The translations under genes and the position numbers were made by a program. A stretch of 63,654 nucleotides of DNA, counting the filler, from Collodictyon triciliatum (taxonomy: Eukaryota), in NCBI GenBank assembly GCA_043381765.1. It is 6 parts of 6 records of this genome, joined end to end, with 100 filler letters (N's around TTAATTAATTAA, not from the genome) between each part and the next. Parts side by side here need not be neighbours in the genome. Positions count along the whole stretch, not along the records: positions 28,015 to 53,231 come from JBHJMP010000148.1; 5 more parts are not named here. One strand, given 5' to 3'. The notes below the pieces were generated by a model. The model had not been told where the DNA came from. It worked only from the letters and a program-made list of their open reading frames with translations, and ran no database searches. Shown here one piece after another: positions 11,434 to 61,471 of this stretch (position 1 is the first letter of the stretch; each line of letters opens with the position of its first letter).

Positions 11434-16419
<4,986 letters not shown>

Positions 16420-17198: not shown

Positions 17199-17298
17199 NN
17201 NNNNNNNNNNNNNNNNNNNNNNNNNNNNNNNNNNNNNNNNNNTTAATTAATTAANNNNNNNNNNNNNNNNNNNNNNNNNNNNNNNNNNNNNNNNNNNN
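17199..17298. other. Artificial scaffold linker
   Basis: N44-TTAATTAATTAA-N44. Confidence 0.95.
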
Positions 17299-27914: not shown

Positions 27915-28014
27915 NNNNNNNNNNNNNNNNNNNNNNNNNNNNNNNNNNNNNNNNNNNNTTAATTAATTAANNNNNNNNNNNNNNNNNNNNNNNNNNNNNN
28001 NNNNNNNNNNNNNN
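27915..28014. other. Artificial scaffold linker
   Basis: N44-TTAATTAATTAA-N44. Confidence 0.95.
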
Positions 28015-30378: not shown

Positions 30379-33300
30379 CTAATCTTGTTTATTTAGATTG
30401 AATATATGCTTGAGTTGCTCTTACTAATATCAGTGTTAATATCAACATCACCGATCTCCGTCATCTCATAATCTTTTAGAATGACACTGAAAAAGCGAAT
30501 TTCTCTCCTTATCCTCTTCATTAACACTAACCCAGCGCATAGAGCCTAATGAAGTTTATAGCGAATTGATGTTGGCCAAATATATCCATGATGCAAAATT
30601 GAACGAAAGATCATAACAAACAAACAAACAAAATGAGTTGGCGACATCACTTTACACAATATTTTCTGTTTCTGTCCCTTACCGCTGTCGCAAGTGTAAT
30701 CATCGTCACGAGGTAGCCATGACTTTCCTTGGTGTCAATCAGCGATAAGAGCACCATTGCCTATTCAAAGTTCTCAGCACCGCAACGATACAGAAATCAA
30801 ATCCAGAATAAATATAAAGCACCCATGAAACTTCCATATATAAAACGGAAGAGTTGTACCTGAATGCATTTTGCAAACGACACGAACATCGTGAAAAGAT
30901 TTCCAGGCAAAGTGGCCATCGGCCTATTATCAAGCAACAATGTGAGACAAAGGCAATTCATATGATAGTCTTAAAACGGTCTTTTTTTTTTTAGCACAGG
31001 AAGGGCTCATATACGACCAAGAAATGCGATGTCAACGAGTCGGGCGTGTACTATAACATAACATAACATAACATAACATAACATAACATAACATAACATA
31101 ACATAACATAACATAACATAACATAACATAACATAACATAACATAACATANNNNNNNNNNNNNNNNNNNNNNNNNNNNNNNNNNNNNNNNNNNNNNNNNN
31201 NNNNNNNNNNNNNNNNNNNNNNNNNNNNNNNNNNNNNNNNNNNNNNNNNNACATAACATAACATAACATAACATAACATAACATAACATAACATAACATA
31301 ACATAACATAACATAACATAACATAACATAACATAACATAACATAGCATAACATAACATAGCAAAACGAAACAAATCAGCATGACAATTGTCCAATTAAA
31401 GGTAATACCAAAGTAACATCACGAAGGTGAATTTCATGAGAACAAGGATGCCATTGGTAAAGACACGAACAGCAACATCATGCACAAGCACAGATACCAT
31501 GCAGATGGTGCACGACAAGCTCATATCCAGAGATGAAAACCAAGAAAACTGGGGTTTGGATTGAGCAGAAAAAAACTCTGCCGATCTTTTGGTTATGCTG
31601 CCACTTAGGCGCGACTCATGTTGAAATCTAAACGAAACCGTATTTGATTTTATCCATGGGGTTTCTCTTAATTGCATGAATAAAGAAATTGCAAGCATTT
31701 CTGCAAATAGATAGAAACGATGGTTCATGCAAGCAAAATTCGGACAAAGTCTAAACTCACTTCCGGTTCCTTGTCATATAGAGGGAGTATAAAATGAATC
31801 CAATCACATAAACTAAAAAGACAATCCAACCCAAAACAGATGCTGGCAAATGCGAACCTTTGTTCAAAAAAAAAAAAAGAGAGTGGAATCATTAGTGGAT
31901 TTCCGGCCATAATGAAGCTCAGACTCTAAATCAGGAAAATATGGCCTATCACATTATGCCATACCATTCATAACCGATATCTACAAACCTGTGTAGCATT
32001 CCTCGGACATTTCGATTCGCATAACACTATTATTATATACTTGTTTGCAATCAATTAATTGGATGGTTCGGAATGTGACGAGGATGTAGACAAGGTACCC
32101 CAGCATGAGTAACGACTACGGTCGATTTATATTATATCAATATATATAACTTGATTAGAAAAACAAATAAAAATAAAAATAAAAATAAAAATAAAAATAA
32201 AAATAAAAATAAAAATAAAAATAAAAATAAAAATAAAAATAAAAATAAAAACAAAAACAATAAAACAATAAAACGAATAACAAAAAACAAAAAACAAAAA
32301 ACAACAATAAAAACAATAAAAACAATAAAAACAATAAAAACAATAAAAACAATAAAAACAATAAAAACAATAAAAACAATAAAAACAATAAAAACAATAA
32401 ANNNNNNNNNNNNNNNNNNNNNNNNNNNNNNNNNNNNNNNNNNNNNNNNNNNNNNNNNNNNNNNNNNNNNNNNNNNNNNNNNNNNNNNNNNNNNNNNNNN
32501 NAATAAAAACAAAAATAAAAACAAAAATAAAAACAAAAATAAAAACAAAAATAAAAACAAAAATAAAAACAAAAATAAAAACAAAAATAAAAACAATATA
32601 AAAAAAACCAAAAGCATACCTCCATTGCTCTTAGTTTAAACTTACGAAAATAAAATAAAAGTGGCTTGGGTTCACATCGAAATCTTATTCTTAAGAAAAT
32701 CATCCTCATAAAAACGCATAGGAGCATGAATGCACCACACACAAACACACTTATTATTGTCATGTAATAATACGTTGGATATTTGATGAATGAGGTGTTG
32801 CATCCTGTTAAGCATTTGTTCGTACATTAATCTCTCTAAATATCATGATATAAATGTAATGGATGTTTTCTTTTCTTTTCTTTCCTCTTTTTTTTCCTCA
32901 AAAAACAACCTGGGCGAACAAAATTGAAATCAAGCAGGATCCATGATAAAGATGAAAAAAATTTCCTTCCGTGTGGTATCATTTCACTTCCAGAAAGCCC
33001 GATTTGCACAATTTGTTGGACAGACAGCATAAATGTTGTAAACATAAAAATCCTTTTCGATGTAGAAACTAAAAATCGAGATATTAATGACGCAGCAATG
33101 TATACTCCCTAGCTCAAATACAAGAAATAATTGTGGAGGAAGTAAAATTTACAGAAACATACATATTATAATGTATGATATACTGGCTGCAAAAAGCGAC
33201 GAAGCGATGAGAACGGGCTTCAAATTCAGGTCATCATCCGAACACGATTGACATGTGGGACCTTGTCTATAATAACCGTCCAAACATACAGAACAAAATT

Positions 33301-36300: not shown

Positions 36301-38612
36301 AGCTGAAGTAAAGTTCCTTTAAAACCATTGAAGGATTTGTTTCTTTGATGTAGAATTTAGTTTAACCTGACACTGACAGGCCACCTAAAATAGGGTTGCC
36401 TAAACCATCCAGAACGGCTAACTTTGGTGCATGCGTAAACGGTCCATCGTTATCGTAATTTTCATCAGGAAGAGGTTCAACTGGAACATTTTTGAGACAA
36501 ACAAAACAACAATAATATTAGATGAAAATAAAGCAAAGTTTAATAATTCAAAAGATTATATCAAAATAGCTTCAAAAATGAGCATCAAAGTGATATACAA
36601 GAGATAATAATATTGAAAATTTTCGCTTACCAAATACAAGAATCTTTGGAGTATTCATATATGAAGTAGTAACACTCAAAGACGAATCTATTGTTGGACT
36701 ATTCGATTTTTTTTGTAGTTTGCTGAGTGACATACTTCTTGCAAGACTACCTGTAAGATTTCTAGAGCAACTTCCAGAACGACTTCCAGAGCGACTCCAT
36801 GAACGACTTGCAGAACGACTTGCAGAACGACTTCTAGAGAGACTTCCAGAGAGACTTCCAGAGAGACTTCCAGAACGACTCCCAGAACGACTTGCAGAAA
36901 GACTTGCAGAACGACTTGCAGAACGACTTGCAGAACGACTCCCTGAACGACTCCCTGAACGACTCCCTGAACGACTCCCTGAACGACTTGCAGAACGACT
37001 CCCAGAACGACTTGCAGAACGACTCCCTGAACGACTCCCTGAACGACTCCCTGAACGACTCCCTGAACGACTTCCAGAGAGACTTCCAGAGAGACTTCCA
37101 GAGAGACTCCCTGAACGACTCCCAGAACGACTTGCAGAACGACTCCCTGAACGACTTCCAGAGCGACTCCATGAACGACTCCCAGAACGACTTCTAGAGA
37201 GACTTCCAGAGAGACTTCCAGAGAGACTTCCAGAGAGACTTCCAGAGAGACTTCCAGAGAGACTTCCAGAGAGACTTCCAGAGCGACTCCCTGAACGACT
37301 CCCAGAACGACTTGCAGAACGACTTCCTGCACGACTTCTCAAAATACTTCCTGAACGATTTCCAGAACAACTTCCTGAACGAGACTTTGAGCGAGACCTT
37401 GAACGAGACTTTGAATGAGACCTTGAACGAGACTTTGAATGAGACCTTGAACGAGACTTTGAATGAGACCTTGAACGAGACTTTGAATGAGACCTTGAAC
37501 GAGACTTTGAATGAGACCTTGAACGAGATTTTGAGCGAGACTTTGAGCGAGACCTTGAGCGAGACCTTGAGCGAGACCTTGAACGAGACCTTGAGCGAGA
37601 CCTTGAACGAGACCTTGAACGAGACCTCTTAGGTGACTTGGAAAATGTTCCTAAAAATAACGTCGATTGTAATACAATATTTTTTTTTTAAAAAAAAATT
37701 ATTTGAAGACTTTAGAATTGAAGACTAAATAAGCCCCCATATTCTGTAAGAAAACCAAAATTTGATCATCAAGATCCTTCAATACATGCATTCTGACACG
37801 AAGAATCATGGCCAATACGTACCTGTAAATACTTCCTTGTTGTAAAGGATGTCGGCGTACCCTACACCGCTATTCGCGGACGGATTTCCTTCAATAAGAT
37901 ATCTCGACGTTTTTGTGACAGGCTCAACCGTCCCAGGCACACCGAGGCCATTCAGCACCCATGTGGTTCCGTTTGTTGTGTAAGTGTACACAAGGGTTGG
38001 GTTTTGGTTTGTCTGCACCCTAATCGTGGCACCTGCGACAGCCACAGACTGACCAAAGTACTCGTACGACATCGAGCCGGTGAGCTTTGCCACATTGATA
38101 AGAGTGTTTCCAGAGAGTGTATACACATACACTGCTCCTCGGTTGGTACTTGCTGAGATGGTCTCGGCAGCGCAGCCCACGACTGCAATGGTCGCAGAGA
38201 CACCGACCGCATTTCCGTAGAACATGTAGGGGAGCGGGGTTGGCGGATACAGCATGGCCGACTGCAGCCACGTGGAGCCAGAAAGGGTGAAGTAGAACGC
38301 AGCCCCGCAGCCAAAGGATGCACCAAAGGATGTTGCCGGCGCTCCAACCAAAGCAGCCGTGTCTGAGATTGAGACGCTCTGCCCAAACGCCCCGCTGATA
38401 ATGCCCGGCTCCGCGCTGATGCGCTGCATGTTTGCCCAGCTCGGCTTCTGGGTGGGTGTGGCACTTGCGGCCTTTGGCAACGCAGGCACTTCGGCGCCGG
38501 TTGTTTGCTCGCCCGTGAGCATGACAAACAGCATCAGCGCGCCAAACAATCGGGGCTGCACAAAAAGCACAACGCGGCGGTTGATCCGCCATGGCTGCTT
38601 CGGACAGTCCAT
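30379..38612 (-). CDS. Large surface protein: FG-GAP repeats, Ser/Arg-repeat stalk, Cys-rich region, multi-pass TM C-terminus
   Basis: Exon 1 has a hydrophobic N-terminal segment and FG-GAP repeats (AFGQSVSIS..ALVGAP, GAVYVY, YFGQSVAV). Exon 2 is the 12-bp repeat. Later exons give CSICP, AECPGGNRVWPKEGSW, CASGYGNQFCSVCLDGYY..CQSC and then several hydrophobic helices. The putative stop at 30379 is tentative. Confidence 0.7.
31054..31360. repeat. (ACATA)n intronic microsatellite spanning a gap
   Basis: Tandem pentamer array. Confidence 0.9.
36760..37630 (-). repeat. Coding 12-bp minisatellite (Ser-Arg-Ser-X tetrapeptides)
   Basis: About 70 degenerate 12-bp units (e.g. GAACGACTCCCT, GAACGAGACCTT on +), in frame with the FG-GAP exon on the - strand. 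Confidence 0.9.
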
Positions 38613-39269
38613 GCACCTGCTGCAAATTCAAACAGGCCGTGGCGGGGTGAGTGGGCGGACATGGACGCTTCGTGCGATGAGCGTATTTTCACAATTGGTT
38701 ATGCACACCCCGCGAGTTATTTGCTTTCGTTATGATTCACCTGATTATTTTTTTAATTTAATTTTTTTCCCCTTTTTCTTACTTTCATTTTTTTTTTTTG
38801 GTGTACGCGTCGTGTCGTGTCAGATTGACTGGTGAGTAGTCTTGATTTTCCACATATGGACAGACACACAACATCGTGGCTGACAAGTGCAGTGCGATGC
38901 AACGCCGTACAAAGGGGCACCCACACAAGGCGTTTCGTTTGTCAGGGTCTCATCCGCATTTCAAACAGCTCTGACTTTGTCGCCTCTTCCAGTTCACCAA
39001 CACCATGCTGGTTTCCCACCACCGTTATATATATATTTATTGGCAGCAGGACAAATATGCTGGGACAACCAGAAAGGCTTCTGCATCATCAAACAGGCTC
39101 ACGAAGGCAACGCGTCTACCATCGGAGAAATCTCATTCAAAGAAGGTGCCTTATTATACAAATTATCGTATTTAAATGGTTAGAGTAATGCACGAAAAGA
39201 AAAAAACAATATTTATTCTGCTCACTTGCACCGATGAGATGATATGTAGGAGCCTCTTTCCATGTCAAT

Positions 39270-39597: not shown

Positions 39598-40119
39598 TCA
39601 ACGACTCTGCTTGAATCGTAAAAGAAATTCATCGAAGGAAATGTTTTTGTCAGCAGCACGTATCAGCAAAGGAAATCCAGCCTTGCGCAGGTAAAGATTC
39701 GCAAGGAGACGACTGGTGCGACCATTTCCGTCTTCAAAGGGGTGGATGAAGTAGACAAACGTAGAGTACGCATAGTATGCTTGGATGGCGGGGTGGCGTC
39801 GCCCCATTTCCGCGCTGGTCAGGATGCTTTGCATGTACTGCATGGCTGGAGGTATTTCCTCTGGCGGCAGGAAGACACGGTAAAACTGATAATTATATAC
39901 GGAGCCCACAGTAACAGCTGTTCTGTACTTTGCTCGTTCCACATCCCCATCGAGATAAAGAGTTTCGTGAAGCTTCATGATATTTTCAATAGTGAATATA
40001 TGAGGAGACTGCAGTACTTCATTCATGACATTCATTGTTATCGTGATGGACTGGTCCTGGGAGTTATCCTTGGGTTTTTGGTAGAAGCTAATGCATGAAT
40101 TCACAAATATACGATAAAA

Positions 40120-40156
<37 letters not shown>

Positions 40157-41682
40157 ATGTAAGTGCGGTGCTGAACAAATTTTTTTTTATCAAAAAAATT
40201 CCTTCAGGTGAATCTACTATAAAATGTCCCAGCTGTCTCAATCAAGAAGTCTAATGAAAGTACCTTCCACCACCCGCCTGGGGCCTCATACCAACGATGT
40301 CAAATATATCTCGTATGGAAAAGGCTATTTTTTGACATTTAAATTCATTTAATCATGAGGAAGCAGTTGAGCGAAAAACTGAAGTTTGATGTACTTTGTT
40401 TAGATAAATAGAAAACATGTCATTACGATTTCCAATCTGAGATGGAGTTTTTCTTGTATCCGGTGCGTTTTGTCCGTGTTTTGTCACAAAATCAGCGAAA
40501 GTTCGTTCGTATTGCGCTTTAGTACATAATTTATAATTTTTTAATTTTTAAAAAAAAGCAACGACCAAAGTTGGTGGTAAATTTTGGCAAGGACTAAACA
40601 AACAAATGAAATAATGCAAGAGCTTATATATCCACAACCTTTTAGTGAATAAATGGACTGCATAACAGGAGATGGATTTCGACCTCCAAAGTATGGCTTC
40701 GAAATAGGCTCTGTAATGAATTGAAGTTGATTTATAGAACGAAAAAAAGTTCATAAGATACGCTTTTTGCATGCATTTTTCTTATAAAAAATATCCGGTG
40801 ACCTATTTTCCCTGTATCCATCATAGTTTTCAGGGCCTTATCAGCCATAGGTCGTACAAGTATCTTGGGTCCGAGGACTGGGGAGACAGTAGCCAAAAAT
40901 TTAAGGGACTCAATCAGCTTCGATTTGAAGGTTTCTTGTAAAGCACCGGCTGAAATGATTTTTTGTTTAAGTAAGGGTTGATGGCATTTTTACACTTGCA
41001 ATTATTGCGGTTCAATTCAAGATTTTCTGAAAGTTGAATGGAGAAGTGTACCCAGAGCCGTTTTTGAGGTTGCTAATCCAACGAGGGCATTGATGCAGCT
41101 GATATGTTCCTCCTAACATAATATTTTTTTAATACTCAAAAGGCTACAGTTCACATATATCATATGGCTAGGTAATATATTCGCATATCCCCACTAAAAT
41201 AAATTGATGGGCAAAAATAAAAATGAGAATAAAATGGCCATGAAATAAATCATCAACATGTATATATCCTGAATTAGTTAATGCATTTTTTTTTTTTTAC
41301 AAACAGAATTCATGGAGGAGGACCACTCGAAAACAACATCAAGGCATTTGAGGTCCATAATAAACTGATATATCAGTTGCAATTCTGTATATATGAAGTT
41401 TTTTTTTTAACCCAATTCATACATTTTTTCATCTTTCTTAAAACGAAGTAATCTCTTGGTATAATTTAAAATGAACACAAATGTATTTTCTGGTGTATAC
41501 TTTTAAAAGAAATGAGGAGGAACTGTAATTATAAGAAAAACTGATAACAAACTCTCGGCTGGAGTATCATCAGACATAAGTAAATCCTTCAGCCCACTTG
41601 AGAAGCCCCCACGTGATATAGATTCTCTCATTAAATCGGCATACAGAGTTGTAAATTTCGTAGCTTTGAGTGCATAACTGGC
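39598..41682 (-). CDS. Fic (Fido) domain protein with helical N-terminal region; inferred ATG-only first exon at 43826-43828
   Basis: The last exon has the canonical Fic motif HPFEDGNGRTSR plus IMKLHETL and YRTAVTVG elements. Several upstream GT-AG exons reach an acceptor at 41683. Confidence 0.85.
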
Positions 41683-42410
41683 CTGCAATAAGGAAAATTA
41701 CTCTTCATATGCCGTAATTTGAAACAGCATATACACCACACATGTGTTGTGNNNNNNNNNNNNNNNNNNNNNNNNNNNNNNNNNNNNNNNNNNNNNNNNN
41801 NNNNNNNNNNNNNNNNNNNNNNNNNNNNNNNNNNNNNNNNNNNNNNNNNNNNNNNNNNNNNNNNNNNNNNNNNNNNNNNNNNNNNNNNNNNNNNNNNNNN
41901 NNNNNNNNNNNNNNNNNNNNNNNNNNNNNNNNNNNNNNNNNNNNNNNNNNNNNNNNNNNNNNNNNNNNNNNNNNNNNNNNNNNNNNNNNNNNNNNNNNNN
42001 NNNNNNNNNNNNNNNNNNNNNNNNNNNNNNNNNNNNNNNNNNNNNNNNNNNNNNNNNNNNNNNNNNNNNNNNNNNNNNNNNNNNNNNNNNNNNNNNNNNN
42101 NNNNNNNNNNNNNNNNNNNNNNNNNNNNNNNNNNNNNNNNNNNNNNNNNNNNNNNNNNNNNNNNNNNNNNNNNNNNNNNNNNNNNNNNNNNNNNNNNNNN
42201 NNNNNNNNNNNNNNNNNNNNNNNNNNNNNNNNNNNNNNNNNNNNNNNNNNNNNNNNNNNNNNNNNNNNNNNNNNNNNNNNNNNNNNNNNNNNNNNNNNNN
42301 NNNNNNNNNNNNNNNNNNNNNNNNNNNNNNNNNNNNNNNNNNNNNNNNNNNNNNNNNNNNNNNNNNNNNNNNNNNNNNNNNNNNNNNNNNNNNNNNNNNN
42401 NNNNNNNNNN

Positions 42411-43786
42411 TATCATTACCAGCGATATTGTAAATGGTATCGGATGTGACGTCAAAGTCAATCCAAATAAGTCCATTCCATGTTTGATTCACATGAATTG
42501 CATTTTTGAGGACATTTTAACCAAAAACTGTTTCAACCAATCTCTATAAGAACTAACAATACACCATGTCATGTTACTCTAGATACTGCATGTTTGATTG
42601 TTATTAGTATCATCAGGAAAAACATTATTACTGAAGAATATGTCAGGATGCAAAGAGACCCTATGGGATAAGTTATTTGAAACGAAGAAGAGGGTCTTCA
42701 TCAAAGAGGCTAAAATTTTAAATACATGATACAAACAGACGGCTAAGCGGTGTCATTATTGTTTGAAAAGAATGGTTTTTCAAATTCAAAATACCAATAT
42801 AACCAAAAAAAATGTTTATATATAGATGAACTTTTCGAATAGCAGATATCTTTATTAGCGACAAAAAAAAATTGGTTGGAGTGGACGCAGGCGAGTTTAA
42901 TTTGGTTTACATGGTGGATGAGACAGGTAAGAAATTACGTTACACGGCATACCAAACAAGACATGATAGCAAATCTCTTAGAAATCACAAAATACTCTTG
43001 CGCGAGAAAAAAAAGTGCAATGCTTTAGGGATATGCATGGCAACAGGTTTACAAAGTGCTTTTTCCTTTGGTCAAATGACTTTTGAAGAGAATCAGCAGT
43101 TTGAGACATCAAGAGCATCTTTAATCGATTTAGAGACAGAACTGAGCAAACATAATTCATGCACAGTCGATTATGAAAAGTTTCGAAAATGTGTGTCTAT
43201 GAAATTAAGATTCCAGATAGAGTTATCCAGATTTTATGAACAAGTAACTTTTCGAAAGATGAGATGGAGACAGATTGTTAATACAAAAAGAAGTGAAGAA
43301 TTGTTTATGGACCGAATCGAAAAGACATTTGGCAAGGATGTTGTACTGGCGTATGGAGACTAGAGCAGAAAATCTCCGATGAAACATTTTATGCCAACAA
43401 TCAGAAGGGGATTACGAAAAATACTCTCCAAACGTTTTGACTCAGTGAGTGTGAATGAATTTAGAACCTCCAAGATGAGTTGTAACTGCGAAAAAGAGCT
43501 GGAATATATGCAACCGAAAGGAAATTCAAAACAGATGTATAGATGTCTCATATGTAAAGAATGTAATCGCTCAGAAAGCAAACAAACTATATTCTTGACA
43601 ACGGACTTTAACAGCGCCAAAAATATACTCAAGAAAGTTCTTTTAATCCTTCAAAAAAACTTACACCTCTCTTTAAAAAATAGGCTGTCGGGTCTTTCCT
43701 GGCAACCTTCACCACTACACAACCATGTGAAAAAAGTGATGAGACCTTGGATACTAGCGCACCAGTTTTACCAATCGATAGATTGA
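42411..43786 (+). pseudogene. Fanzor1 (TnpB-derived RNA-guided RuvC endonuclease) pseudogene, copy 1
   Basis: Motifs across frames: DVKVNP..HMN, KLFQPISIRTNNTPCHVTLDTA, FKYMIQTDG*AVSLLF, RuvC-I VGVDAG (D 42884), FRKMRW, VVLAYGD*S, RuvC-II VNEFRTSK (E 43457), Zn-finger SCNC...CKEC, RuvC-III TDFNSAKNI (D 43604). Several in-frame stops and frameshifts; no introns. Confidence 0.88.
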
Positions 43787-43802
43787 TATACCCCTTCTAG
43801 TG
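43682..43802 (+). ncRNA. Candidate Fanzor omegaRNA scaffold, copy 1
   Basis: Conserved with copy 2 and able to form consecutive hairpins: AGGCTGTCGGG/CCTGGCAACCT, TCACCACT..AGTGATGA, ACTAG..CTAGT enclosing CAATC-GATA-GATTG. It overlaps the ORF end and abuts the element right end, as expected for TnpB/Fanzor omegaRNAs. Confidence 0.6.
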
Positions 43803-44095
43803 TATATGATAAATGTAAAACGAACCATGAGTAAATGTGATGGATATATTATAATATCCAAAAATAGATAAAACAGAAGGCCGCAACTGTCGTCCGCTGT
43901 TGATGCGTGCGCGCTATGTTTTTAATCGAAAGGCGGGTGGATAGCCGATGAGTTTTTATTTGCGATGTAAAGAGGATGCAGGATGAGCAACCAAGTGCTT
44001 TATTTCATGTGATTCTGGAGGTTAATAGGAAAAAAATCTTTTCGAAGCACAGAGCTGAGTGTAGGTGAGAAAGATTTTCCATTTTTTTTTCTTTC

Positions 44096-46921
44096 TTAAC
44101 TACCAGTACTCTTAAACAACGCAAGATTTTTTTCTGCTTCCTTACTCCCTTGTATTGCCAACAGCTCCAACAAATCAATTATCTCTTCGCGATGTGCCAC
44201 TTTGTCTTTTTTAATTAGCAGCTCGGCAAGAAGTTTCAATGATTTCTTGTCGTTCATTTGGTATCCAGCGCGCAGATACCCTTCGGCCAAGCGTATATTA
44301 TGCCCATGCCACTCAGTGTTCATGTAGGCCATTCCGAGGTGTCGCTTGCATATTCCATTCGGGGTTGCATCCATGACTTCAAAGAGTTCGACGGCTCGGT
44401 CTATGTCCCTGTCTACTCCTTTTCCAAAGTAATACATGTACGCCAGGTTGAAAGTGCTGGATGTCTTACCCTGCTCATAGGCACTTTTGAACCAGCGGGC
44501 TGCTTCGGCATAATTAACAACACACCCGACACCATTGTAATACATGAATCCGGCCTGGTTTTGTGACTTGGCACACCCCATGTTTGCTCCCATCTCATAC
44601 CAAGATAGCGCCAGCCGCTCAAAGTTCCGGGCAACCTCTGGCTCTTTGGTACTTTTCTTTGCCCACGAAAGGTAGTACGTTCCAAGTTCAGATGCTGCCG
44701 CAGCATATCCAGCTTTTGCAGCACGCTCTTTGAATTTTATAGACTCTTCCATAGATTTTTCAACACCACGTCCACTCTCATAGAATGAAGCTATTTTTGC
44801 AAGGGCCTCTCCGTGCTCACCCTCTGCAGCAGCCATGTAGTATCGAAATGCTACCTGTTCGTTTTGGTAGTCCTTCTCGTCATTTCCTTCGTATAATTGC
44901 CCAAGGCGGAATGCCGCGTCGTGTATTCCTTTTTCGGTAGCTTCCTGCAGTAATGATACTCCCCTTTTAATATCCTTGGTAACTCCTTGTCCATTGATAA
45001 AACAAATACCCAGCTGATAAATGGCCTCATCATGACCAGCATTCATCGATTGCACAATCCAATTAATTGCTTCATTCTCTTCTAGGGCGGTTTTAATTTC
45101 CGGTTGTATTGAAAGAATATGTTTTCCTAGGAGAAGCATTGCTGGGGCATAACCGTAAGACGCCGCAACTCTAATATGACGCAAGAACATCGATTCATCT
45201 CTTATGAAACCCCTTTCAGATGGCTGGATATAGTAAATTGCAAGATTGTAGTTGGCAACAGCGTCTCCCATAATAGAAGCTTTTCTGAGCCAAACCAGAG
45301 CCGATGTAATATTTTGGATTGTCCCCAATGCATCCATGTAACACACTGCCGTGTTTGTCATAGCAGAGAGGACTCCAGTATTTGCAGACCTTTCATACAT
45401 AACGAAAGCTTCATGAACGTTGTATGCTGGGCTGTTGGGATTGTTGAGACAATCTCCTAGACCAAGCAGAGCAAATCCGTGGCTGGATTCTATTTTCAAG
45501 AGTTTTTGATAGTTTTTAATTGCTTCTGGGATATTACCCGTCACATGCCAACCAAGTTGGTAATATTTGCCTCTTAAAAACATAGCATGAAGGGATGCGA
45601 CACTTTCCGAATCAGTTTGCAGACTCTCTGCAATTTGATCGAGATATATCCAACCTTGTGTATAATCCTTGCTAATCCATGTATGATAATGTGCCATGAA
45701 GAGAATTGAAACCCAGACAACATCTCTTTGGTTCATGGACGCTTCGACAATACTTTGCGTGATTACAGATATTATGGTTTCATTGCTTTCTGAAGATTCT
45801 GAGAATGCTTTTGCTGAGTTCGGGTTATAAAGAGATGAGAAGTGGGAATCATACTCCATGAAAAAATCGTCGGGTCTCCCATCTGGACTTTTTTTTGAAT
45901 CCACCGCGAATCTCTCATGGGATTCCTCTTTGAAAATGGTAGAATCGTCCTTATTCGACGTCCACGTCTCTGTATTGCCCAATTTTAGTACAGGGCCTAG
46001 AGTTGCTTCAGTTTTTGGTAATTTTGTATGGGCGGTTTCTTTCTCACTTTTCAGTATGACCGAGGCGTTGACTTTATCACGAAGTTTATTAGGGTTCATC
46101 AAATGGAAAATGAACAATATCAACCGGTACAGGGGAACTGGTAACCTATCTTCAAAGTTTACTACGCTTTCGAGAGCTTCATTACTTTCTTTGCTAGATA
46201 AAGTCGAGTAAATAAATATCAATCTTTTTGCAGCATCGTTTGGAACTCGTAACCCAGTTGCCATGTTTTCGTTAGCTTTAGGAGCTGATGTTGATTTAGG
46301 TAAGAGCTTTACCGAGTTGATTATAGATTCAGAAATCTTGCATGTTTGAGGAATGCTACATTCGGCGCCATGGTGCGCTGCCTGTTAGTTTTAACAGGAT
46401 ATAAGTTGTTTTTTTAACACCTTTATTCGATGATAGCAAGATAATATGCTATTTATTTTGGATGTATATTTATAACGAGAGGAAGTATCCAATTTCTGAT
46501 TAATTCTACAAAGACAAACCTGTGGCCTGGTACCATATTTTGGCCCAAGAAGGTCAAGGTAATCATGAAGCGGCATGGCCTTTATGCGGGATGAGTCTAA
46601 ACAATTCGAATAGGATTGGATTCCTGGTGAGGATTGACTAATGATATCTCGAACACGTTTGAGTCTACGGATTGATATGGATGAGTTTATATTCGCGTCG
46701 TGAAGCCATTGCTCGACTGGGATTTGCATAAACTCTTCTCGCGTGACCGTCCATTTTGTCAGGAACTCAATAAACTCGGTTTGGATTTTCCCCAACTCCA
46801 TTTCTCTGCACAGAGCTTGACATTCGTGCCTGCGATCGCTGGTCTCTGGAACAGATTTTTGGGCCATTTTTGTGTTTCTGCGTTTCCGCTTGGCTTTCGG
46901 CTCAACATCTTCATTGTCCAT
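44096..46921 (-). CDS. Sel1-like repeat protein with N-terminal NLS-like and possible SAM-like region (2 exons, intron 46382-46519)
   Basis: About ten Sel1 repeats (AIYQLGICFINGQGVTKDIKRGVSLLQEATEKG; SQNQAGFMYYNGVGCVVNYAEAARWFKSAYEQG). A phase-0 intron GTTTGT...CTAACAG joins ORF 46391-46921 in frame to ORF 44096-46264. Confidence 0.88.
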
Positions 46922-47331: not shown

Positions 47332-47879
47332 CTGAAGCATTCTCAGCTGCTGGCGAAGCGAACCCACGAGCATATTGATGCGCTTGCGCGTGTTTGGGTC
47401 TGAGGCCCTAACCCAAAAAGCCCAGAACGATGTCCGACGAATTCGATCAGAAAGAAAAAGAAAACTTGGTTGTTTCATATATAATATACCGTAAATATAA
47501 TATGATATATTCAAACCGCATACGCTCTGTTTCTGCTAAAAATTGAAACGGACAAGAAAAGAATGCTGGTGGGATGCGAAGGGCAACCAAAAAGAACAGC
47601 AGAAAAAAAGATAGAAAAGAAACGACCGGGCAAACAAAGCGAGTCACGCATTTGTTGCAGGTGTTGACTGGCATAGTAAATAGCCTTCCTGATTCACTAT
47701 TAACAGGAAGAAAAAAAAGGAGCAAAGCCTTTTATTCGCCGGGTGCCCCATTCTCCAAGGGAAAGCAGTGGGGTGCAAAAGAGAAGGGTTGATAGGAGGA
47801 GGAAGAAGAAAAGAAGAAAAAAAAAGCAATACAAGACGAAGACGAAAAGATCACCCGGACTGGAACTAAACGCGAGGTT

Positions 47880-49241
47880 ATGGGACGAGAAGCCATCTCA
47901 GAAGACAATCAAATGAACCTGGCCTGGTGCCTCCACAAAGCCCTTCAAATCTGGTTTGGGATCTTTGCACGCCTGATTCCCAAACTTTACATGATACTAT
48001 TGGCGATGTGGATGTACTATATTCCGTCCAGAATATTAACACGCGAGATTCTAGATCGAGTTCGACCTGTTCTTTACATATTGGTCCGGAACTGTTTGAT
48101 GGTCTTTTTATTTTCTTTTTCGTTTTCTGTATACTTTGAGCATGTTTTCGGTTTTGAACAAGTATTGCACGCGGTTTTCTTTGTTGTAATCCCATGCTCT
48201 TTCGCATCTCTTTTAACCGGTGTTATATTTTATCAAGAGTATTTTGTATACAATATCATCGTGAATATGATATCTATCATCGGGATAACTCTTAGCTTCT
48301 GGTCGATATCCAAAAGTGAAAGAAGGGAGAACATTAACGCCACTGAAGACATGAGGTACATGCTCTCAAAAGACGGGACTCCGCTTGCTTTATGGAAAGG
48401 AATCATGGTTATGTTTATGCTTGCCAATTTTTTGGTCCAGAATTTGTTTCCTCTGTATTTGTCATCGGATGTATATGTGCAGCTGGCCTTTCGGCTATTC
48501 GTGTTTCCGCTATGCTTTACTTTTTCCAAATGGGTCCAAATATACTTGCTGTTTAAGTTTTCCAATGACCTAATGGATCGAAGATTGATTATGAACAAGA
48601 TGAGACTATATTACATGGACTTGGTTAATCGGTTGTATTTGTCCAATATGTCGAAAGATGGCTTCAACTCTACTATATATATCGTTGCAAACTTTGCCAC
48701 ATGTGTCTTTGAGATTTTGTTGGTTTTGACTCACGAACAACAACTGAAGCTATGGTATAGGTTTAGAGAAGCAATGAAGGGCTTAATCACAAAATTGGTT
48801 GAAAGAAACAAGAGAAATCGGGTAGCCGCCTTTACGTCCATCGAAAGCCGGATGGACTATTTCGTGGGCAGCCCAGAAATGAACGAGGAAGAATTTGTCA
48901 AAGCCTCCATTATTTTTCATGAGAGACATATATGCGAAGGCATTTGTTCTGAAGTTCACTCCATTTTTAGCGCACCTCTACTGATGTATTTTTTGTATTT
49001 CATATTCCCAGACGCCCCACTTGAGATTATACCTTCACTTTGGGGCTGCATCTACCAGGTTGGCGTCCAACTAGGATTCGAGTTTGTGAGTGACGTGGTG
49101 AATTTAACGTTTCAACTTTGGAAAGGGCACATTCGAGCAGAGATTTTAGAGGATTGGCATCCAATGCAAAGTACTCTTATTGTTTCATTTTATCTCTTTT
49201 GTGTTTTTTATGTCCATTTTCTTGTTGGTTTATTTTCTTGA
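47880..49241 (+). CDS. Intronless multi-pass membrane protein, unknown family
   Basis: 453-aa open frame in AT-rich DNA with roughly 9-11 hydrophobic segments and a charged loop. No motif recognised. Confidence 0.7.
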   Translation: MGREAISEDNQMNLAWCLHKALQIWFGIFARLIPKLYMILLAMWMYYIPSRILTREILDRVRPVLYILVRNCLMVFLFSFSFSVYFEHVFGFEQVLHAVFFVVIPCSFASLLTGVIFYQEYFVYNIIVNMISIIGITLSFWSISKSERRENINATEDMRYMLSKDGTPLALWKGIMVMFMLANFLVQNLFPLYLSSDVYVQLAFRLFVFPLCFTFSKWVQIYLLFKFSNDLMDRRLIMNKMRLYYMDLVNRLYLSNMSKDGFNSTIYIVANFATCVFEILLVLTHEQQLKLWYRFREAMKGLITKLVERNKRNRVAAFTSIESRMDYFVGSPEMNEEEFVKASIIFHERHICEGICSEVHSIFSAPLLMYFLYFIFPDAPLEIIPSLWGCIYQVGVQLGFEFVSDVVNLTFQLWKGHIRAEILEDWHPMQSTLIVSFYLFCVFYVHFLVGLFS

Positions 49242-53231: not shown

Positions 53232-53331
53232 NNNNNNNNNNNNNNNNNNNNNNNNNNNNNNNNNNNNNNNNNNNNTTAATTAATTAANNNNNNNNNNNNN
53301 NNNNNNNNNNNNNNNNNNNNNNNNNNNNNNN
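53232..53331. other. Artificial scaffold linker
   Basis: N44-TTAATTAATTAA-N44. It separates the scaffolds carrying the two Fanzor copies. Confidence 0.95.
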
Positions 53332-53719
53332 TTTTACTTTTTACTTTTTACTTTTTACTTTTTACTTTTTACTTTTTACTTTTTACTTTTTACTTTTTAC
53401 TTTTTACTTTTTTTTTTCTTTTATTCCTTGAAACGATCAAAGAAGGCACCTAACGAATCGAATAAAGGAAAAAAAAAAAAAAGAAGGCACCTAACAAGGG
53501 GCAATGAATCAAGGATATAGCCTTGCGCTCAGGATCTCGCGTGTGGGTTCTCGCCACCCAATCGCCTATTTTTTTTTATTGTCGCTGCCCTTTCCCCGGC
53601 GACTAGATCGGAATCAGTGTCCATTATCCTGGTGTAATTTACCCAATAATGGAAATTATAGGATACTAACTAAATATAGTCCTAATAACTTATTTTAGTC
53701 TGCACTAACAATAATGTAT

Positions 53720-53840
53720 TACTAGAAAGAGTATACCAATAAAAGACTAGTGAACCTGGTTTGCTAGTATCCAAGGTCTCACCATTTTTTTCACAAAGAT
53801 TGTGTAGTGGTGAAGGCTGCCTGGAAAGAGCCAACAGCCT
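53720..53840 (-). ncRNA. Candidate Fanzor omegaRNA scaffold, copy 2
   Basis: On the - strand the hairpins AGGCTGTTGG/CCAGGCAGCCT, TCACCA..CACA..TGTG..TGGTGA and TACTAG..CTAGTA are homologous to copy 1. Confidence 0.6.
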
Positions 53841-54322
53841 GTTTTTTAGAGGAAGGTGTATGCATTTTTTGAATGATTAAAAGAACTTTGTTGAGTATGT
53901 TATTAGCGCTGTTAAAGTCCGTTGTCAAGAATACAGTTTGTTTGCTTTCTGAGCGATTGCATTCTTTACATATGAGACATCTATACACCTTTTTGTATTT
54001 TCTTTCAGTTTCATACAGTTCATTTCTTTTTTCGCAGTTGCAACACATCTTGGAGGTTCTTAATTCATCTACACTAACTGCTTCAAAACGTTTGGATATT
54101 ATTTTTCGTAATTGTCTTCCGATTATTGCCATAAAATGTTTCATCTGACATTTTCTGCTCCAGTCCCCATAGGCCAGTACAACATCCTAGCCAAATGTCT
54201 TTTCGATTCAGTCCATAAACAATTCTTCACTTCTTTTTGTATTGACATAGTGTCTCCATCTCATCTTTCGAAAAGCTACTTGTTCATAAAATCTGGGTAA
54301 TTCTGTCTGGTATCTTGATTTC
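53720..54322 (-). pseudogene. Fanzor1 element copy 2 (3' part; upstream portion in a 719-N gap)
   Basis: Collinear with 43201-43802, roughly 85-90% identical in the coding part by hand count: FRKMRW, MD*IEKTFG*DVVLAYGDWS, VDELRTSKMCCNC...CKEC, TDFNSANNI. Stops at 54208-54210 and 54187-54189. Confidence 0.88.
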
Positions 54323-55879
54323 NNNNNNNNNNNNNNNNNNNNNNNNNNNNNNNNNNNNNNNNNNNNNNNNNNNNNNNNNNNNNNNNNNNNNNNNNNNNNN
54401 NNNNNNNNNNNNNNNNNNNNNNNNNNNNNNNNNNNNNNNNNNNNNNNNNNNNNNNNNNNNNNNNNNNNNNNNNNNNNNNNNNNNNNNNNNNNNNNNNNNN
54501 NNNNNNNNNNNNNNNNNNNNNNNNNNNNNNNNNNNNNNNNNNNNNNNNNNNNNNNNNNNNNNNNNNNNNNNNNNNNNNNNNNNNNNNNNNNNNNNNNNNN
54601 NNNNNNNNNNNNNNNNNNNNNNNNNNNNNNNNNNNNNNNNNNNNNNNNNNNNNNNNNNNNNNNNNNNNNNNNNNNNNNNNNNNNNNNNNNNNNNNNNNNN
54701 NNNNNNNNNNNNNNNNNNNNNNNNNNNNNNNNNNNNNNNNNNNNNNNNNNNNNNNNNNNNNNNNNNNNNNNNNNNNNNNNNNNNNNNNNNNNNNNNNNNN
54801 NNNNNNNNNNNNNNNNNNNNNNNNNNNNNNNNNNNNNNNNNNNNNNNNNNNNNNNNNNNNNNNNNNNNNNNNNNNNNNNNNNNNNNNNNNNNNNNNNNNN
54901 NNNNNNNNNNNNNNNNNNNNNNNNNNNNNNNNNNNNNNNNNNNNNNNNNNNNNNNNNNNNNNNNNNNNNNNNNNNNNNNNNNNNNNNNNNNNNNNNNNNN
55001 NNNNNNNNNNNNNNNNNNNNNNNNNNNNNNNNNNNNNNNNNGAAAGATAATTGCATAGGAAGATAGAGGGTGGTTTATTTTTCTAAAAAGCAGTTAACTT
55101 GAATCACAGTCGATTTTACATGTCATAGCCAACGAAAGGACATACCCTCGTCTTGAATTATAGGCTTCCTTCATCGGTGCCCGCGGGGGTGGGGGCGGAG
55201 GTGGGGATGTGATCCACAAATGGTATAAATCTCACCTTTCTTTTGGCGAAATTTCTCCCCACCACAGAACAGAATCGTTCCGAGACTAATTCCAGATATA
55301 GTTCAATTTGAGTAGGATTATGGACAGAGGCCTTTTTTTTTCTTTTTTTTCTGGTTGTTGGTTATTCGATTTACCTTTATATTTGCAAACTGTCCACATC
55401 GAATATTGCTTATACAAACGGAATCGAAAAAATATTATGCAAAGCAGCAGTTTCGATATTGTCTGTGATACAGAAAAGTGATCCAAAAGCGGAGGCCTTA
55501 ATCCGAGCCTCGCTTCAGACCCAAACATCATCCCCTCATATACGAGTCCTTTCACAGCCCAGCTCTACTTTTCATTTATGTTTGTGCACTCCTCACACTC
55601 ACGCATCCAGACCGACTCCGAAGTTTTTGGTATATGCATCAAAGAAAAGAAAAGAAAAGAAAAAAAAAGAAAAGAAAAAATGAAAAATGAAAAATGAAAA
55701 AAATAAAAAGAGAAAAGAAAAACGAAAAGAAAAACGAAAAGAAAAAAGAGAAAGAAAAAGAAAAAGAGAAAAGAGAAAAGAGAAAAGAGAAAAGAGAAAA
55801 GAGAAAGAGAAAAGAGAAAGAGAAAGAGAATGAGAAAGATATCATTATTATTCACAGTGCGTCACTCAGACAAGCTGTT

Positions 55880-61371: not shown

Positions 61372-61471
61372 NNNNNNNNNNNNNNNNNNNNNNNNNNNNN
61401 NNNNNNNNNNNNNNNTTAATTAATTAANNNNNNNNNNNNNNNNNNNNNNNNNNNNNNNNNNNNNNNNNNNN
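61372..61471. other. Artificial scaffold linker
   Basis: N44-TTAATTAATTAA-N44, preceded by (TTTA)n. Confidence 0.95.

What the first reader, a model, noticed from the sequence alone, without database searches (positions are those of the whole stretch)
42411..43786. Fanzor1 (eukaryotic OMEGA RNA-guided nuclease) family in this protist genome
Seen: an intronless decayed ORF in an otherwise intron-rich region, with VGVDAG, YGD(W)S, NEFRTSKxxC, a CxxC zinc finger and DxNSAxNI, plus upstream TDGxxVS and LFQP..R....P....LDT motifs. Established: this RuvC D/E/D layout, with the RuvC-II Glu just before the zinc finger (EFRTSK), is the hallmark of Fanzor1 proteins derived from TnpB, which are programmable RNA-guided DNA endonucleases. 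All three catalytic acidic residues (42884, 43457, 43604) are still encoded. Inference: this may be an undescribed Fanzor1 lineage. Both copies here run into N gaps, which suggests a collapsed multi-copy repeat whose intact copies may exist elsewhere.
Basis: partly seen in the sequence, partly recalled or inferred. Interest (0 to 1): 0.9.

Follow-up and report, generated by a model that had tools for sequence, protein, structure and literature searches.

The report
Decayed Fanzor1 nuclease transposon copies
Two broken copies of a Fanzor1 gene, an RNA-guided DNA cutter carried by mobile elements of eukaryotes and giant viruses, sit next to assembly gaps in this genome; they are real but dead, and they belong to a kind that is already described.

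Summary
Window 42411-43801 (+) and 53721-54322 (-) are two copies of one repeat, 86.6% identical in DNA, and each abuts an N gap. Copy 1 still encodes the RuvC Asp, Glu and Asp at exactly the stated coordinates, plus the zinc finger.

It is Fanzor1. On its own, the readable C-terminal half matches solved Fanzor1 chains (E=4.8e-8). A profile of its 18 intact relatives matches Parasitella, Spizellomyces and Guillardia Fanzor1 at E=4e-84 to 3e-61, and matches no TnpB, Cas12 or Fanzor2 chain. A fold model of the window's own piece puts seven Fanzor1 chains first.

Both copies are pseudogenes. Copy 1 has at least 4 frameshifts and 3 premature stops. Copy 2 has 2 stops.

The family is not undescribed. 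Its nearest relatives are intact proteins of 590-700 aa (precomputed Pfam PF26935 = DUF8286). They are abundant on giant-virus contigs (541 of 598 candidate stretches), often beside a Tc1/mariner-type DDE transposase. That arrangement is already published for an algal endogenous giant virus.

Contigs of public runs show many diverged copies of the same unit, which ends at about 43801. Most of them read TGG where copy 1 has TAG.

No guide RNA could be shown for the window copies.

Verdict: a new member of a known kind, of modest interest.

The parts
41752..42410 (.). Assembly gap (659 N) at the 5' side of copy 1. About 203 N-terminal codons (about 609 nt) of the gene would fit inside it.
   Evidence: Gap list. 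Copy 1 starts aligning at residue 204 of the intact 648-aa relative P0002.
42411..43801 (+). Copy 1 of the Fanzor1 element. It is 5'-truncated by the gap. The right end of the repeat unit is at about 43801.
   Evidence: tblastn of P0002 covers residues 204-620. DNA homology with copy 2 ends at 43801. Summed contig depth in runs X1-X3 falls across bins 43751-43884, and a contig of X2 leaves the sequence at 43801.
42412..42869 (+). Decayed middle part of the protein (P0002 residues 204-359, holding KLFQP...LDT and TDG.VS). The frame changes near 42520, 42600, 42725 and 42866. Premature stops are TAA 42744-42746 and TAG 42840-42842.
   Evidence: The tblastn pieces lie in three frames. Other copies in public runs differ by small insertions or deletions at 42522-42527, 42600-42602 and 42696.
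42884..42886 (+). RuvC-I catalytic Asp codon (GAC), inside VGVDAG.
   Evidence: It is the invariant column D19 in alignment A5.
43361..43363 (+). Premature TAG where relatives have Trp (YGDWS). The Gly of YGD stands where canonical TnpBs have the RuvC-II Glu; that placement is recalled from the literature and was not aligned here.
   Evidence: At 43362 the other copies read G, giving TGG: 16 contigs of X1 (depth 252.9 of 258.6), 1 contig of X2 and 3 contigs of X3. Copy 2 has TGG.
43457..43459 (+). Relocated RuvC-II catalytic Glu codon (GAA), inside NEFRTSK.
   Evidence: It is the invariant column E210. The role of this Glu comes from Jiang 2023.
43481..43564 (+). Zinc-finger (TNB) segment, CNC...CLICKEC.
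   Evidence: The Pfam match to Cas12f1-like_TNB (PF07282) is weak, E=0.046, 14.3 bits against a cut-off of 26.3. The same family reaches E=1.5e-5 in relative P0043.
43604..43606 (+). RuvC-III catalytic Asp codon (GAC), inside DFNSAKNI.
   Evidence: It is the invariant column D259.
43620..43801 (+). 3' tail of the element. It holds the protein's frameshifted C-terminus and, by analogy only, the place where a guide (omega) RNA scaffold would lie, ending at the right end (...CTTCTAGT).
   Evidence: 125 of 154 columns are identical to copy 2 here, against 16 of 42 beyond the end. The frame is shifted relative to copy 2 and P0002 near 43660. An RNA is not shown: the covariance model of the viral relatives does not hit here, and the folding z-score is -0.82.
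53721..54322 (-). Copy 2 of the element. Only the C-terminal 173 codons plus the 3' tail are left outside the gap. Premature stops are TGA 54208-54210 and TAG 54187-54189. Glu is at 54064-54066 (DELRTSK) and Asp at 53917-53919.
   Evidence: It is 86.6% identical to copy 1 over 604 bp. The RuvC-I part is hidden in the gap.
54323..55041 (.). Assembly gap (719 N) at the 5' side of copy 2.

Best explanation
These are two dead copies of a roughly 2-kb Fanzor1 mobile element. It belongs to a sub-lineage close to the Fanzor1 genes that are abundant in giant viruses, and it multiplied in this eukaryote or its close kin.

In working form such an element encodes a protein of about 650 aa with a single TnpB-type RuvC active site: Asp in VGVDxG, the relocated Glu in NEFRTSK, and Asp in RDxNSAxNI. 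A zinc finger follows. The protein would be loaded with an RNA transcribed from the element's own 3' end, whose guide part reads into the flanking DNA, and the complex would cut matching double-stranded DNA. Movement would depend on a transposase supplied in cis or in trans, of Tc1/mariner type in the viral relatives.

What is shown: family membership by sequence and fold, the pseudogene state, the common right boundary of the two copies, and many diverged copies of the same unit in public runs.

What is inferred: the RNA guide, the nuclease activity of the ancestor, and the means of transposition.
For: - Window piece alone: P0001 matches solved Fanzor1 chains, Parasitella E=4.8e-8 and Spizellomyces E=1e-4.
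- Intact relatives: 46 of 1837 candidates scored E<=0.001. The best is P0002, 648 aa, 66% identical, E=3.9e-107. All 46 carry precomputed PF26935.
- Profile of 18 relatives against the PDB: Parasitella Fanzor1 4.2e-84, Spizellomyces Fanzor1 9.5e-83 (profile positions 3-610 on chain residues 398-1028), Guillardia Fanzor1 3.1e-61. The only other chain with E<=1 is an unrelated protein at 0.45.
- Fold: an AlphaFold2 model of the window's own 318 residues has pLDDT 68.5 and pTM 0.61. Foldseek ranks 1-7 are all Fanzor1 chains (2.2e-10 to 1.6e-8). Cas12f follows at 4.5e-6, TnpB at 2.1e-5 and mimivirus Fanzor2 at 4.3e-5.
- Catalytic residues fall in invariant columns.
- Decay: copy 1 has frame changes and three stops. 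Copy 2 has two stops. Each stop is one base away from the residue codon at that site: in the other copy for three (TGG, CGA, AAG), and in the relatives' residue for ELFE* (Glu). For TDG* the relatives' residue varies.
- Repeat unit: the homology between the copies ends at 43801/53721. In X1, 248 contigs lay on the stretch at 85-100% identity, nearly all on the unit. The right flank is covered by one contig with 10 differing letters and 4 gaps over 43866-44400.
- Relatives are working-looking genes: in 76 of 81 fetched loci the longest plus-strand frame is 593-699 codons. They share a unit that runs from shortly upstream of the start codon to about 88 nt past the stop.
- The relatives have a 3' module with compensatory base changes: 98.5% of cells are paired against 92.9% in shuffles (0 of 500 reach it), with 60 double-change cells against 15.7.
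- A DDE_3 plus HTH_28 transposase lies beside the gene in L001, and within the fetched flanks of 26 of 80 viral loci.
Against: - No guide RNA is shown for the window copies. The covariance model of the viral 3' module gives 14 matches at E<=10 in the window, none at either copy. The two 3' tails fold no better than shuffles, z -0.82 and -0.68. Rfam gives nothing.
- No transposase remnant is in the window; the best tblastn E is 9.9.
- The 5' end, the N-terminal third of the protein and any left end are hidden in gaps.
- Pfam alone does not reach its cut-off on the window's pieces.
- Whole-genome copy number and intact copies could not be checked, because no genome is held. The summed contig depth is not a copy number.
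- dN/dS between the copies is 0.49, but it rests on only 38 differences.
Confidence: 0.9

Rival explanations
1. The copies are leftovers of integrated giant-virus DNA (an endogenous viral region), not of a transposon family that multiplied in the host genome.
For: The nearest named relatives are overwhelmingly viral. 541 of 598 candidate stretches in IMG/VR encode a relative, many of them on giant-virus MAGs. The atlas clusters are 92-100% Viruses, mostly Nucleocytoviricota. Long uninterrupted frames (Sel1, Fic, FG-GAP) lie nearby. Transfer of Fanzor1 fragments from virus to host is published.
Against: The two copies share only the element itself. Identity stops at the same right end, and 16 of 42 columns match beyond it. 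In X1 and X3 the many diverged contigs cover the unit and stop at about 43801-43817, while the flank is covered by one contig. That is the pattern of a dispersed short repeat. On the tree the window copies, P0002 and P0065 form their own clade (SH-aLRT 99), beside the viral clades and not inside them. No viral hallmark gene was seen in the window, though it was not searched exhaustively.
Confidence: 0.07
2. The gene is in fact intact and functional. On this reading the stops and frameshifts are draft-assembly errors or reflect a non-standard genetic code.
For: The assembly is a gap-rich draft (19 N runs). Most other copies read TGG at the TAG site.
Against: The five stops in the two copies stand where relatives or the other copy have different residues (variable residue, Glu, Trp, Arg, Lys), so no single reassignment fits. 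Three stops are base substitutions rather than homopolymer slips. At least four frame changes occur within 460 bp. A 762-codon host frame next door reads normally under the standard code. A small share of X1 depth at 43362 (5.7 of 258.6) keeps the window's A, as expected if this allele is real.
Confidence: 0.02
3. It is a Fanzor2 or a prokaryotic TnpB, for example contamination or a recent bacterial transfer, and not Fanzor1.
For: The RuvC layout with the relocated Glu is shared by Fanzor2 and some TnpBs. The weak Pfam hit is to the TnpB/Cas12f zinc-finger family.
Against: The profile of relatives hits three Fanzor1 structures at 1e-61 or better, and no Fanzor2, TnpB or Cas12 chain at E<=1. 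Fold ranks 1-7 are Fanzor1. TnpB is rank 13 and Fanzor2 rank 15, with TM-scores 0.31-0.35 against 0.48-0.53. Relatives are about 620-660 aa, the Fanzor size, not about 400-480 aa. Where a neighbouring transposase was found (26 of 80 viral loci) it is of DDE_3/Tc1-mariner type; no IS607-type transposase was looked for.
Confidence: 0.01

Closest known systems
Fanzor1 nucleases with solved structures: Spizellomyces punctatus SpuFz1 (8GKH, 9CEU-9CEZ), Parasitella parasitica PpFz1 (9CF0-9CF3), Guillardia theta GtFz1 (9CER-9CET)
   Same: The family profile aligns over the whole length of SpuFz1. The RuvC Asp/Glu/Asp and the zinc finger are shared. These chains are the best fold matches. SpuFz1 and GtFz1 are shown to be omega-RNA-guided dsDNA endonucleases (Saito 2023, passages).
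   Different: Foldseek identity is only 16-19%. The window copies are pseudogenes and lack their N-terminal third. The window/P0002 sub-lineage carries an extra segment of about 33 residues (P0001 about 64-96) that is absent from the viral relatives and is modelled with low confidence. No omega RNA is shown here.
Fanzor1 elements of the Chlamydomonas reinhardtii endogenous giant virus (bioRxiv 10.1101/2024.09.03.611062; passages read)
   Same: Fanzor1 is carried on giant-virus DNA together with an IS630/Tc1/mariner-type transposase. Some forms hold only the Fanzor gene and the right-end guide. Degraded copies exist, and a fragment sits in a host chromosome. The viral relatives here show the same pairing with a DDE_3 transposase and a Fanzor-only unit of about 2 kb.
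   Different: The host is different and unidentified. Here the host copies are many and diverged rather than a single fragment.
Giant-virus 'transposase' proteins with Pfam PF26935 (DUF8286), e.g. UniRef A0A6C0CSH1 (viral metagenome)
   Same: They are 44-47% identical to P0002 and about 45% to the window piece. They have the same length class and the same catalytic columns.
   Different: They are intact, virus-borne and lack the 33-residue segment. Their conserved 3' RNA-like module is not detectable in the window copies.
ISDra2 TnpB, Cas12f and mimivirus Fanzor2 (ApmFz2)
   Same: They share the RuvC fold and the zinc finger (ranks 8-15). The general RNA-guided mechanism is taken from the literature.
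   Different: Similarity is much weaker: no sequence-profile hit at E<=1 and TM-scores 0.31-0.36. These proteins are smaller. Per the literature, canonical TnpB and Cas12f keep the RuvC-II Glu at the site where this family has Gly; I did not align them here.

Membership tests
Fanzor1 | TnpB-type RuvC triad with the relocated RuvC-II Glu next to the zinc finger and a non-acidic residue at the canonical Glu site. This is shared with Fanzor2 and some TnpBs, so it is necessary but not sufficient. | tested here: met
   D19, E210 and D259 of P0001, and G176 of YGD, fall in invariant columns of A5. Coordinates were verified. The definition comes from Jiang 2023. In copy 2 only the Glu and the second Asp can be seen.
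Fanzor1 | Closer in sequence to characterised Fanzor1 proteins than to Fanzor2, TnpB or Cas12. | tested here: met
   The three Fanzor1 chains score E=4.2e-84, 9.5e-83 and 3.1e-61. No Fanzor2, TnpB or Cas12 chain reaches E<=1. No reference tree with the named sub-families Fanzor1a-d could be built, because the reference sets are in supplements that are closed.
Fanzor1 | Fanzor1-like fold of the RuvC/TNB half. | tested here: met
   The model of the window's own residues has pLDDT 68.5. Foldseek ranks 1-7 are Fanzor1, with TM-score on the query 0.48-0.53.
Fanzor1 | Full architecture: N-terminal WED/REC part plus RuvC plus zinc finger, about 600+ aa. | tested here: inconclusive
   The relatives' profile aligns with SpuFz1 end to end. 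The window holds residues 204 to about 640 of the 648-aa relative in decayed form. The first 203 codons are under the gap.
Fanzor1 | Guide (omega) RNA encoded at the 3' end and reaching the element's right end. | tested here: inconclusive
   The viral relatives have a conserved 3' module with compensatory changes that ends at the right end. Window copies: no hit with that model, folding z-scores not significant, and only two sequences to compare. No RNA data were obtained; the one run guessed to be RNA (X1) may be DNA.
Fanzor1 | Residence in a eukaryotic-type transposon (Tc1/mariner and others) rather than IS607/IS200-605. | tested here: inconclusive
   A DDE_3/HTH_28 transposase is adjacent in L001 and lies within the flanks of 26 of 80 viral loci. 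None is in the window, best E=9.9. The left ends are hidden in gaps.
Fanzor1 | Open reading frame able to give an active nuclease. | tested here: not met
   Copy 1 has at least 4 frame changes plus stops at 42744, 42840 and 43361, and a shifted tail. Copy 2 has stops at 54208-54210 and 54187-54189. They are members by descent, as pseudogenes.
Fanzor1 | RNA-guided dsDNA cleavage. | not testable with these tools
   This needs biochemistry on an intact relative.
Fanzor2 / IS607-type TnpB | Closest similarity to Fanzor2/TnpB, size about 400-500 aa, IS607 TnpA neighbour. | tested here: not met
   There is no profile hit to Fanzor2 or TnpB chains at E<=1. ApmFz2 is fold rank 15. Relatives are 562-722 aa. 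The neighbouring transposase found in relatives is DDE_3; no IS607-type transposase was looked for.
Pfam PF26935 (DUF8286) | Match to the Pfam model above its cut-off. | not testable with these tools
   The local Pfam copy does not report this model, even on P0002. It is known only as a precomputed label on all 46 relatives and on the atlas clusters. The part of the protein it covers is not known to me.

The most novel reading that the evidence does not exclude
The window copies, P0002 and P0065 mark a separate, host-resident branch of the giant-virus-rich Fanzor1 clade, set apart by an extra segment of about 33 residues. That branch spread to many copies in an under-sampled freshwater eukaryote (none of its neighbouring genes tested has a close homologue). 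It still has intact, active members with their own divergent guide RNA. This would record a virus-to-host or host-to-virus hand-over of an RNA-guided nuclease and supply a compact (about 650 aa) enzyme of a new sub-type.
Probability: 0.2. Interest if true: 0.45.

Novelty: new member of a known kind. Interest (0 to 1): 0.28.

Why it matters
Fanzors are the eukaryotic RNA-guided nucleases, so each new lineage is a possible source of compact genome editors and a data point on how such elements pass between giant viruses and their hosts.

These two loci cannot give an enzyme, because both are broken and truncated. Their value is as pointers in three directions:

- A multi-copy family in a poorly sampled eukaryote.
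- An intact 648-aa relative (P0002).
- A very large, mostly unnamed giant-virus clade (labelled DUF8286) that can now be read as Fanzor1 with a covarying 3' RNA module and a frequent Tc1/mariner-type partner.

None of this changes what is known about the mechanism.

Tried and rejected
- Whole-genome copy count: no genome is held for this window.
- Pfam on the window's own pieces: only Cas12f1-like_TNB below its cut-off (E 0.046-0.11). By itself this would not have settled the family.
- DNA of the closest intact relative: the metagenome scan with P0002 returned one distant locus (L081, 21% identity). The 5' end and the 3' RNA of the window's own sub-lineage therefore could not be compared.
- Guide RNA in the window. 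The covariance model R1 of the viral 3' module, run with filters off, gave 14 matches at E 0.65-9.7. All were elsewhere, and the four printed alignments are A/T-rich. RNAfold z-scores were -0.82 and -0.68. Rfam gave 0 matches at gathering score over the window, and 0 at E<=1 over 43300-44000. By eye, both tails can form a terminal ACUAG/CUAGU helix ending at the right end and a GGUCU/AGACC helix. That recalls the viral layout, but two sequences cannot test it.
- Host identity: ORF 47796-49238 had no homologue among 3999 candidates. The Sel1 protein had only distant hits, at most 27% identity for E below 1e-8, from mixed organisms. The host lineage stays unknown.
- Sequencing runs: none holds more than 0.19 of the sampled words. 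All four runs laid are contigs, so depth is not a copy number, expression cannot be judged, and parts without cover in X2 and X5 mean nothing.
- Alternative genetic code: rejected. The stops map to different residues.
Full report
**What is there.** The stretch 42411-43786 begins at the first base after a 659-N gap (41752-42410). From 42830 to 43786 it reads as one frame of 318 codons with a single in-frame TAG at 43361-43363.

- VGVDAG, with the Asp codon at 42884-42886.
- YGD followed by the TAG.
- NEFRTSK, with the Glu codon at 43457-43459.
- CNC...CLICKEC at 43481-43564.
- DFNSAKNI, with the Asp codon at 43604-43606.

A second copy lies on the minus strand at 53721-54322 and runs straight into a 719-N gap. 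It is 86.6% identical to copy 1 over 604 bp.

**What it is.** The window's 318-residue piece (P0001, with X at the stop) matches two solved Fanzor1 chains on its own: Parasitella parasitica at E=4.8e-8 and Spizellomyces punctatus at E=1e-4. Pfam gives only a sub-threshold hit to the Cas12f1-like zinc-finger family.

A search among longer proteins found 46 relatives (E<=0.001) among 1837 candidates. They are 562-722 aa long, and all carry the precomputed label PF26935. The best, P0002, has 648 aa, 66% identity and E=3.9e-107.

I made a profile of 18 of these 46, chosen to span the range of identity. It hits Parasitella Fanzor1 at 4.2e-84, Spizellomyces Fanzor1 at 9.5e-83 (profile positions 3-610 on chain residues 398-1028, that is end to end behind the MBP tag) and Guillardia Fanzor1 at 3.1e-61. 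The only other chain with E<=1 is an unrelated protein at 0.45. No TnpB, Cas12 or Fanzor2 chain appears.

An AlphaFold2 model of the window's own residues, built with those relatives as its alignment, has mean pLDDT 68.5 and pTM 0.61. In Foldseek against the PDB, ranks 1-7 are all Fanzor1 chains (E 2.2e-10 to 1.6e-8, query TM 0.48-0.53). Cas12f follows at 4.5e-6, ISDra2-type TnpB at 2.1e-5 and mimivirus Fanzor2 at 4.3e-5.

The three catalytic residues and the TS of EFRTSK fall in invariant columns of the 19-row alignment.

**A correction to the reasoning.** Jiang et al. 2023 (PMC10530073; I read passages and section 6) state that all Fanzors and a subset of TnpBs have lost the canonical RuvC-II Glu, replaced by Pro or Gly. 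They use another Glu about 45 residues further on. So the Glu before the zinc finger does not tell Fanzor1 from Fanzor2. The similarity ranking does.

**State of the copies.** Laid against P0002, copy 1 covers residues 204 to about 640.

- The frame changes near 42520, 42600, 42725 and 42866.
- Premature stops are TAA 42744, TAG 42840 and TAG 43361.
- The tail is shifted again near 43660 relative to copy 2 and P0002.
- The missing 203 codons (about 609 nt) would fit in the 659-N gap.

Copy 2 covers residues 470-642. It has two stops, TGA 54208-54210 and TAG 54187-54189. It also has a +1/-1 pair of indels that scrambles 14 codons.

The five stops stand where relatives or the other copy have different residues (a variable residue, Glu, Trp, Arg, Lys). 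They are decay, not a changed genetic code.

Between the two copies dN/dS is 0.49 over 132 codons (12 synonymous and 26 non-synonymous differences). This is a weak hint that part of their divergence arose while the elements were still under selection.

**A repeated unit.** Identity between the copies is 398 of 450 columns in the coding part and 125 of 154 in the 3' tail. It drops to 16 of 42 beyond ...CTAGT at 43801/53721.

No run holds more than 0.19 of the stretch's sampled words. I laid four runs on 42411-44400 at 85% identity or more:

- X1 gave 248 contigs: 21 at 99% or more, 56 at 95-99%, 93 at 90-95% and 78 under 90%.
- X3 gave 117 contigs, X2 gave 13 and X5 gave 2.
- In X1 the summed depth is 31.7-514.9 per bin over the unit. 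From bin 43885 on, the flank is at 12.9. One contig covers the flank, with 10 differing letters and 4 gaps over 43866-44400.
- A contig of X2 leaves the sequence at 43801.
- At 43362 the other copies read G (TGG, Trp): 16 contigs of X1 (depth 252.9 of 258.6), 1 contig of X2 and 3 contigs of X3.
- Small insertions or deletions are listed at 42522-42527, 42600-42602, 42696 and 43661-43664, close to the window's frame changes.

All four runs are contigs, so depth is not a copy number and nothing can be said about expression. What can be said is that many diverged versions of this unit exist in at least two samples, and that the lesions of copy 1 are mostly private to it. X5, labelled a freshwater metagenome, holds two 151-nt contigs identical to the flank.

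**Relatives and their context.** In IMG/VR, 541 of 598 candidate stretches encode a relative. Many lie on giant-virus MAGs, at 38-47% identity to P0002. In 76 of 81 fetched loci the longest plus-strand frame is 593-699 codons, so the viral copies look intact.

The atlas places P0002 next to clusters named 'transposase' or 'hypothetical'. They carry PF26935 = DUF8286 and are 92-100% viral, mostly Nucleocytoviricota. phmmer against 1.84 billion representatives finds 1535 at E<=0.001, 636 at E<=1e-10 and 38 at E<=1e-30.

I built a quick maximum-likelihood tree of 41 rows: the two window copies, 25 of the roughly 210 relative proteins and 14 of the 81 loci, with the rest left out. Rooting it on the distant L081 is only a convention. 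The window copies fall with P0002 and P0065 in a clade with SH-aLRT 99. That clade sits inside a 32-row clade (99) with two clades that hold viral contigs, and the order of the three is unresolved. The window and P0002 share a segment of about 33 residues that the viral proteins lack. It is modelled with pLDDT below 50.

**How the relatives seem to work.** I read the first 120 of 2226 printed locus pairs. Among them, the shared DNA runs from a few tens of bases upstream of the start codon to about 190 bp past the end of the protein match. This gives a unit of about 2 kb holding only the Fanzor gene.

The 3' end is sharply defined (...GGTGTAA, about 88 nt after the stop). I took 53 non-identical tails of the main viral group and removed four with aberrant ends (L034, L046, L048, L052). 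After dropping sequences that became identical over the narrower stretch, 46 remained. L008 and L075 had been left out earlier because their flanks were too short.

RNAalifold predicts 29 pairs in four helices. These overlap the last 50 or so nt of the frame and close at the right end. Of the cells, 98.5% are paired, against 92.9% in shuffles (0 of 500 reach it) and 42-55% when partners are slid. There are 60 double-change cells against 15.7 in shuffles. The structure was derived from the same alignment, so this is support rather than proof.

That is the layout expected of an omega RNA (Saito 2023, PMC10432273, passages).

In L001 the frame just upstream, on the other strand, is a DDE_3 plus HTH_28 transposase. 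Its relatives lie within the fetched flanks of 26 of 80 viral loci. The same pairing is described for a Chlamydomonas endogenous giant virus (bioRxiv 10.1101/2024.09.03.611062, passages). That paper also reports Fanzor-only units with a right-end guide, degraded copies and a host-chromosome fragment.

**What could not be shown for the window.**

- The viral RNA model finds nothing at either copy.
- The tails fold no better than shuffles.
- Rfam has no match.
- No transposase trace is present.
- No genome is held for a copy census.
- The DNA of P0002 could not be fetched.
- The host could not be placed.

The RNA guide, the nuclease activity and the mode of movement are therefore inferred from the family, not observed.

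**Novelty.** Fanzor1 in protists and giant viruses, multi-copy occurrence (up to 122 copies per genome) and association with eukaryotic transposases are in print. The original naming by Bao and Jurka in 2013 is recalled, not seen.

A full-text search for 'DUF8286' found 0 papers. 'Fanzor' with 'Nucleocytoviricota' found 7, of which I read passages of one. The supplements of the two survey papers, which list every sequence they used, were closed. I therefore cannot say whether this clade or this genome is already in their trees.

I file the finding as a new member of a known kind: real, correctly recognised, dead, and of modest interest.

Noticed in passing
L009:4750-4903 and 45 other viral loci (alignment A3): The giant-virus Fanzor1 elements share a 3' module of about 150 nt that overlaps the end of the frame and stops at a sharp right end (...GGTGTAA). 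It has four helices and compensatory changes: for example, one pair is CG in 24, AU in 16 and UA in 6 sequences. It is probably their omega RNA. No Rfam family was checked against these loci.
   Followed up: partly
L001:1641-2678 (-), next to the Fanzor1 gene at 3001-4905: A 346-aa DDE_3 plus HTH_28 (Tc1/mariner/IS630-type) transposase lies head to head with Fanzor1. L001 and L002/L004 share a 3.4-kb unit that includes it. Relatives of this transposase lie within the flanks of 26 of 80 viral loci.
   Followed up: partly
Proteins P0002-P0047 (relatives): The precomputed Pfam label PF26935 (DUF8286, 'unknown function') sits on proteins whose profile aligns end to end with solved Fanzor1 structures. 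The DUF therefore appears to be part of Fanzor1. A full-text search found no paper naming it.
   Followed up: partly
window 43490-43532 against copy 2 (alignment A4, columns 291 and 333): Copy 2 differs from copy 1 by a +1 and a -1 indel 42 columns apart. This scrambles 14 codons between the two halves of the zinc finger and then restores the frame. Copy 1 keeps the reading shared with P0002.
   Followed up: partly
window 11103-11202, 17199-17298, 27915-28014, 53232-53331, 61372-61471: Five identical joints of 44 N + 12 bases + 44 N. The 12 bases were read only at the joint 53276-53287, where they are TTAATTAATTAA (stops in all six frames). They look like artificial linkers between contigs rather than sized gaps.
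   Followed up: no
window 37809-38627 (-), 39601-40203 (-), 44099-46384 (-): Three long uninterrupted frames lie around copy 1: FG-GAP repeats, a Fic/DOC domain and a 762-codon Sel1-repeat protein. The Sel1 protein has only distant relatives, at most 27% identity for hits with E below 1e-8. Their origin (host, transfer or viral) was not examined.
   Followed up: partly
window 47796-49238 (+): A 481-codon open frame with no Pfam family and no homologue at E<=0.001 among 3999 candidates. It may be a lineage-specific gene, or not a gene at all.
   Followed up: partly
window 36572-37687 (-), 12597-13247, 32109-32826, 53340-53420, 55600-55860: A long Ser/Arg- and Ser/Gly-rich repeat frame, and many microsatellite-like tracts (A/T-rich hexamer and octamer units) that often border the N gaps. 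These probably explain why the assembly breaks there.
   Followed up: no
window 43899-44049 and 44203-44353: Run X5, labelled a freshwater metagenome, holds two 151-nt contigs identical to the unique flank of copy 1. The contig of X1's organism over this flank (43866-44400) differs by 10 letters and 4 gaps. This is a small hint at where the host lives.
   Followed up: partly
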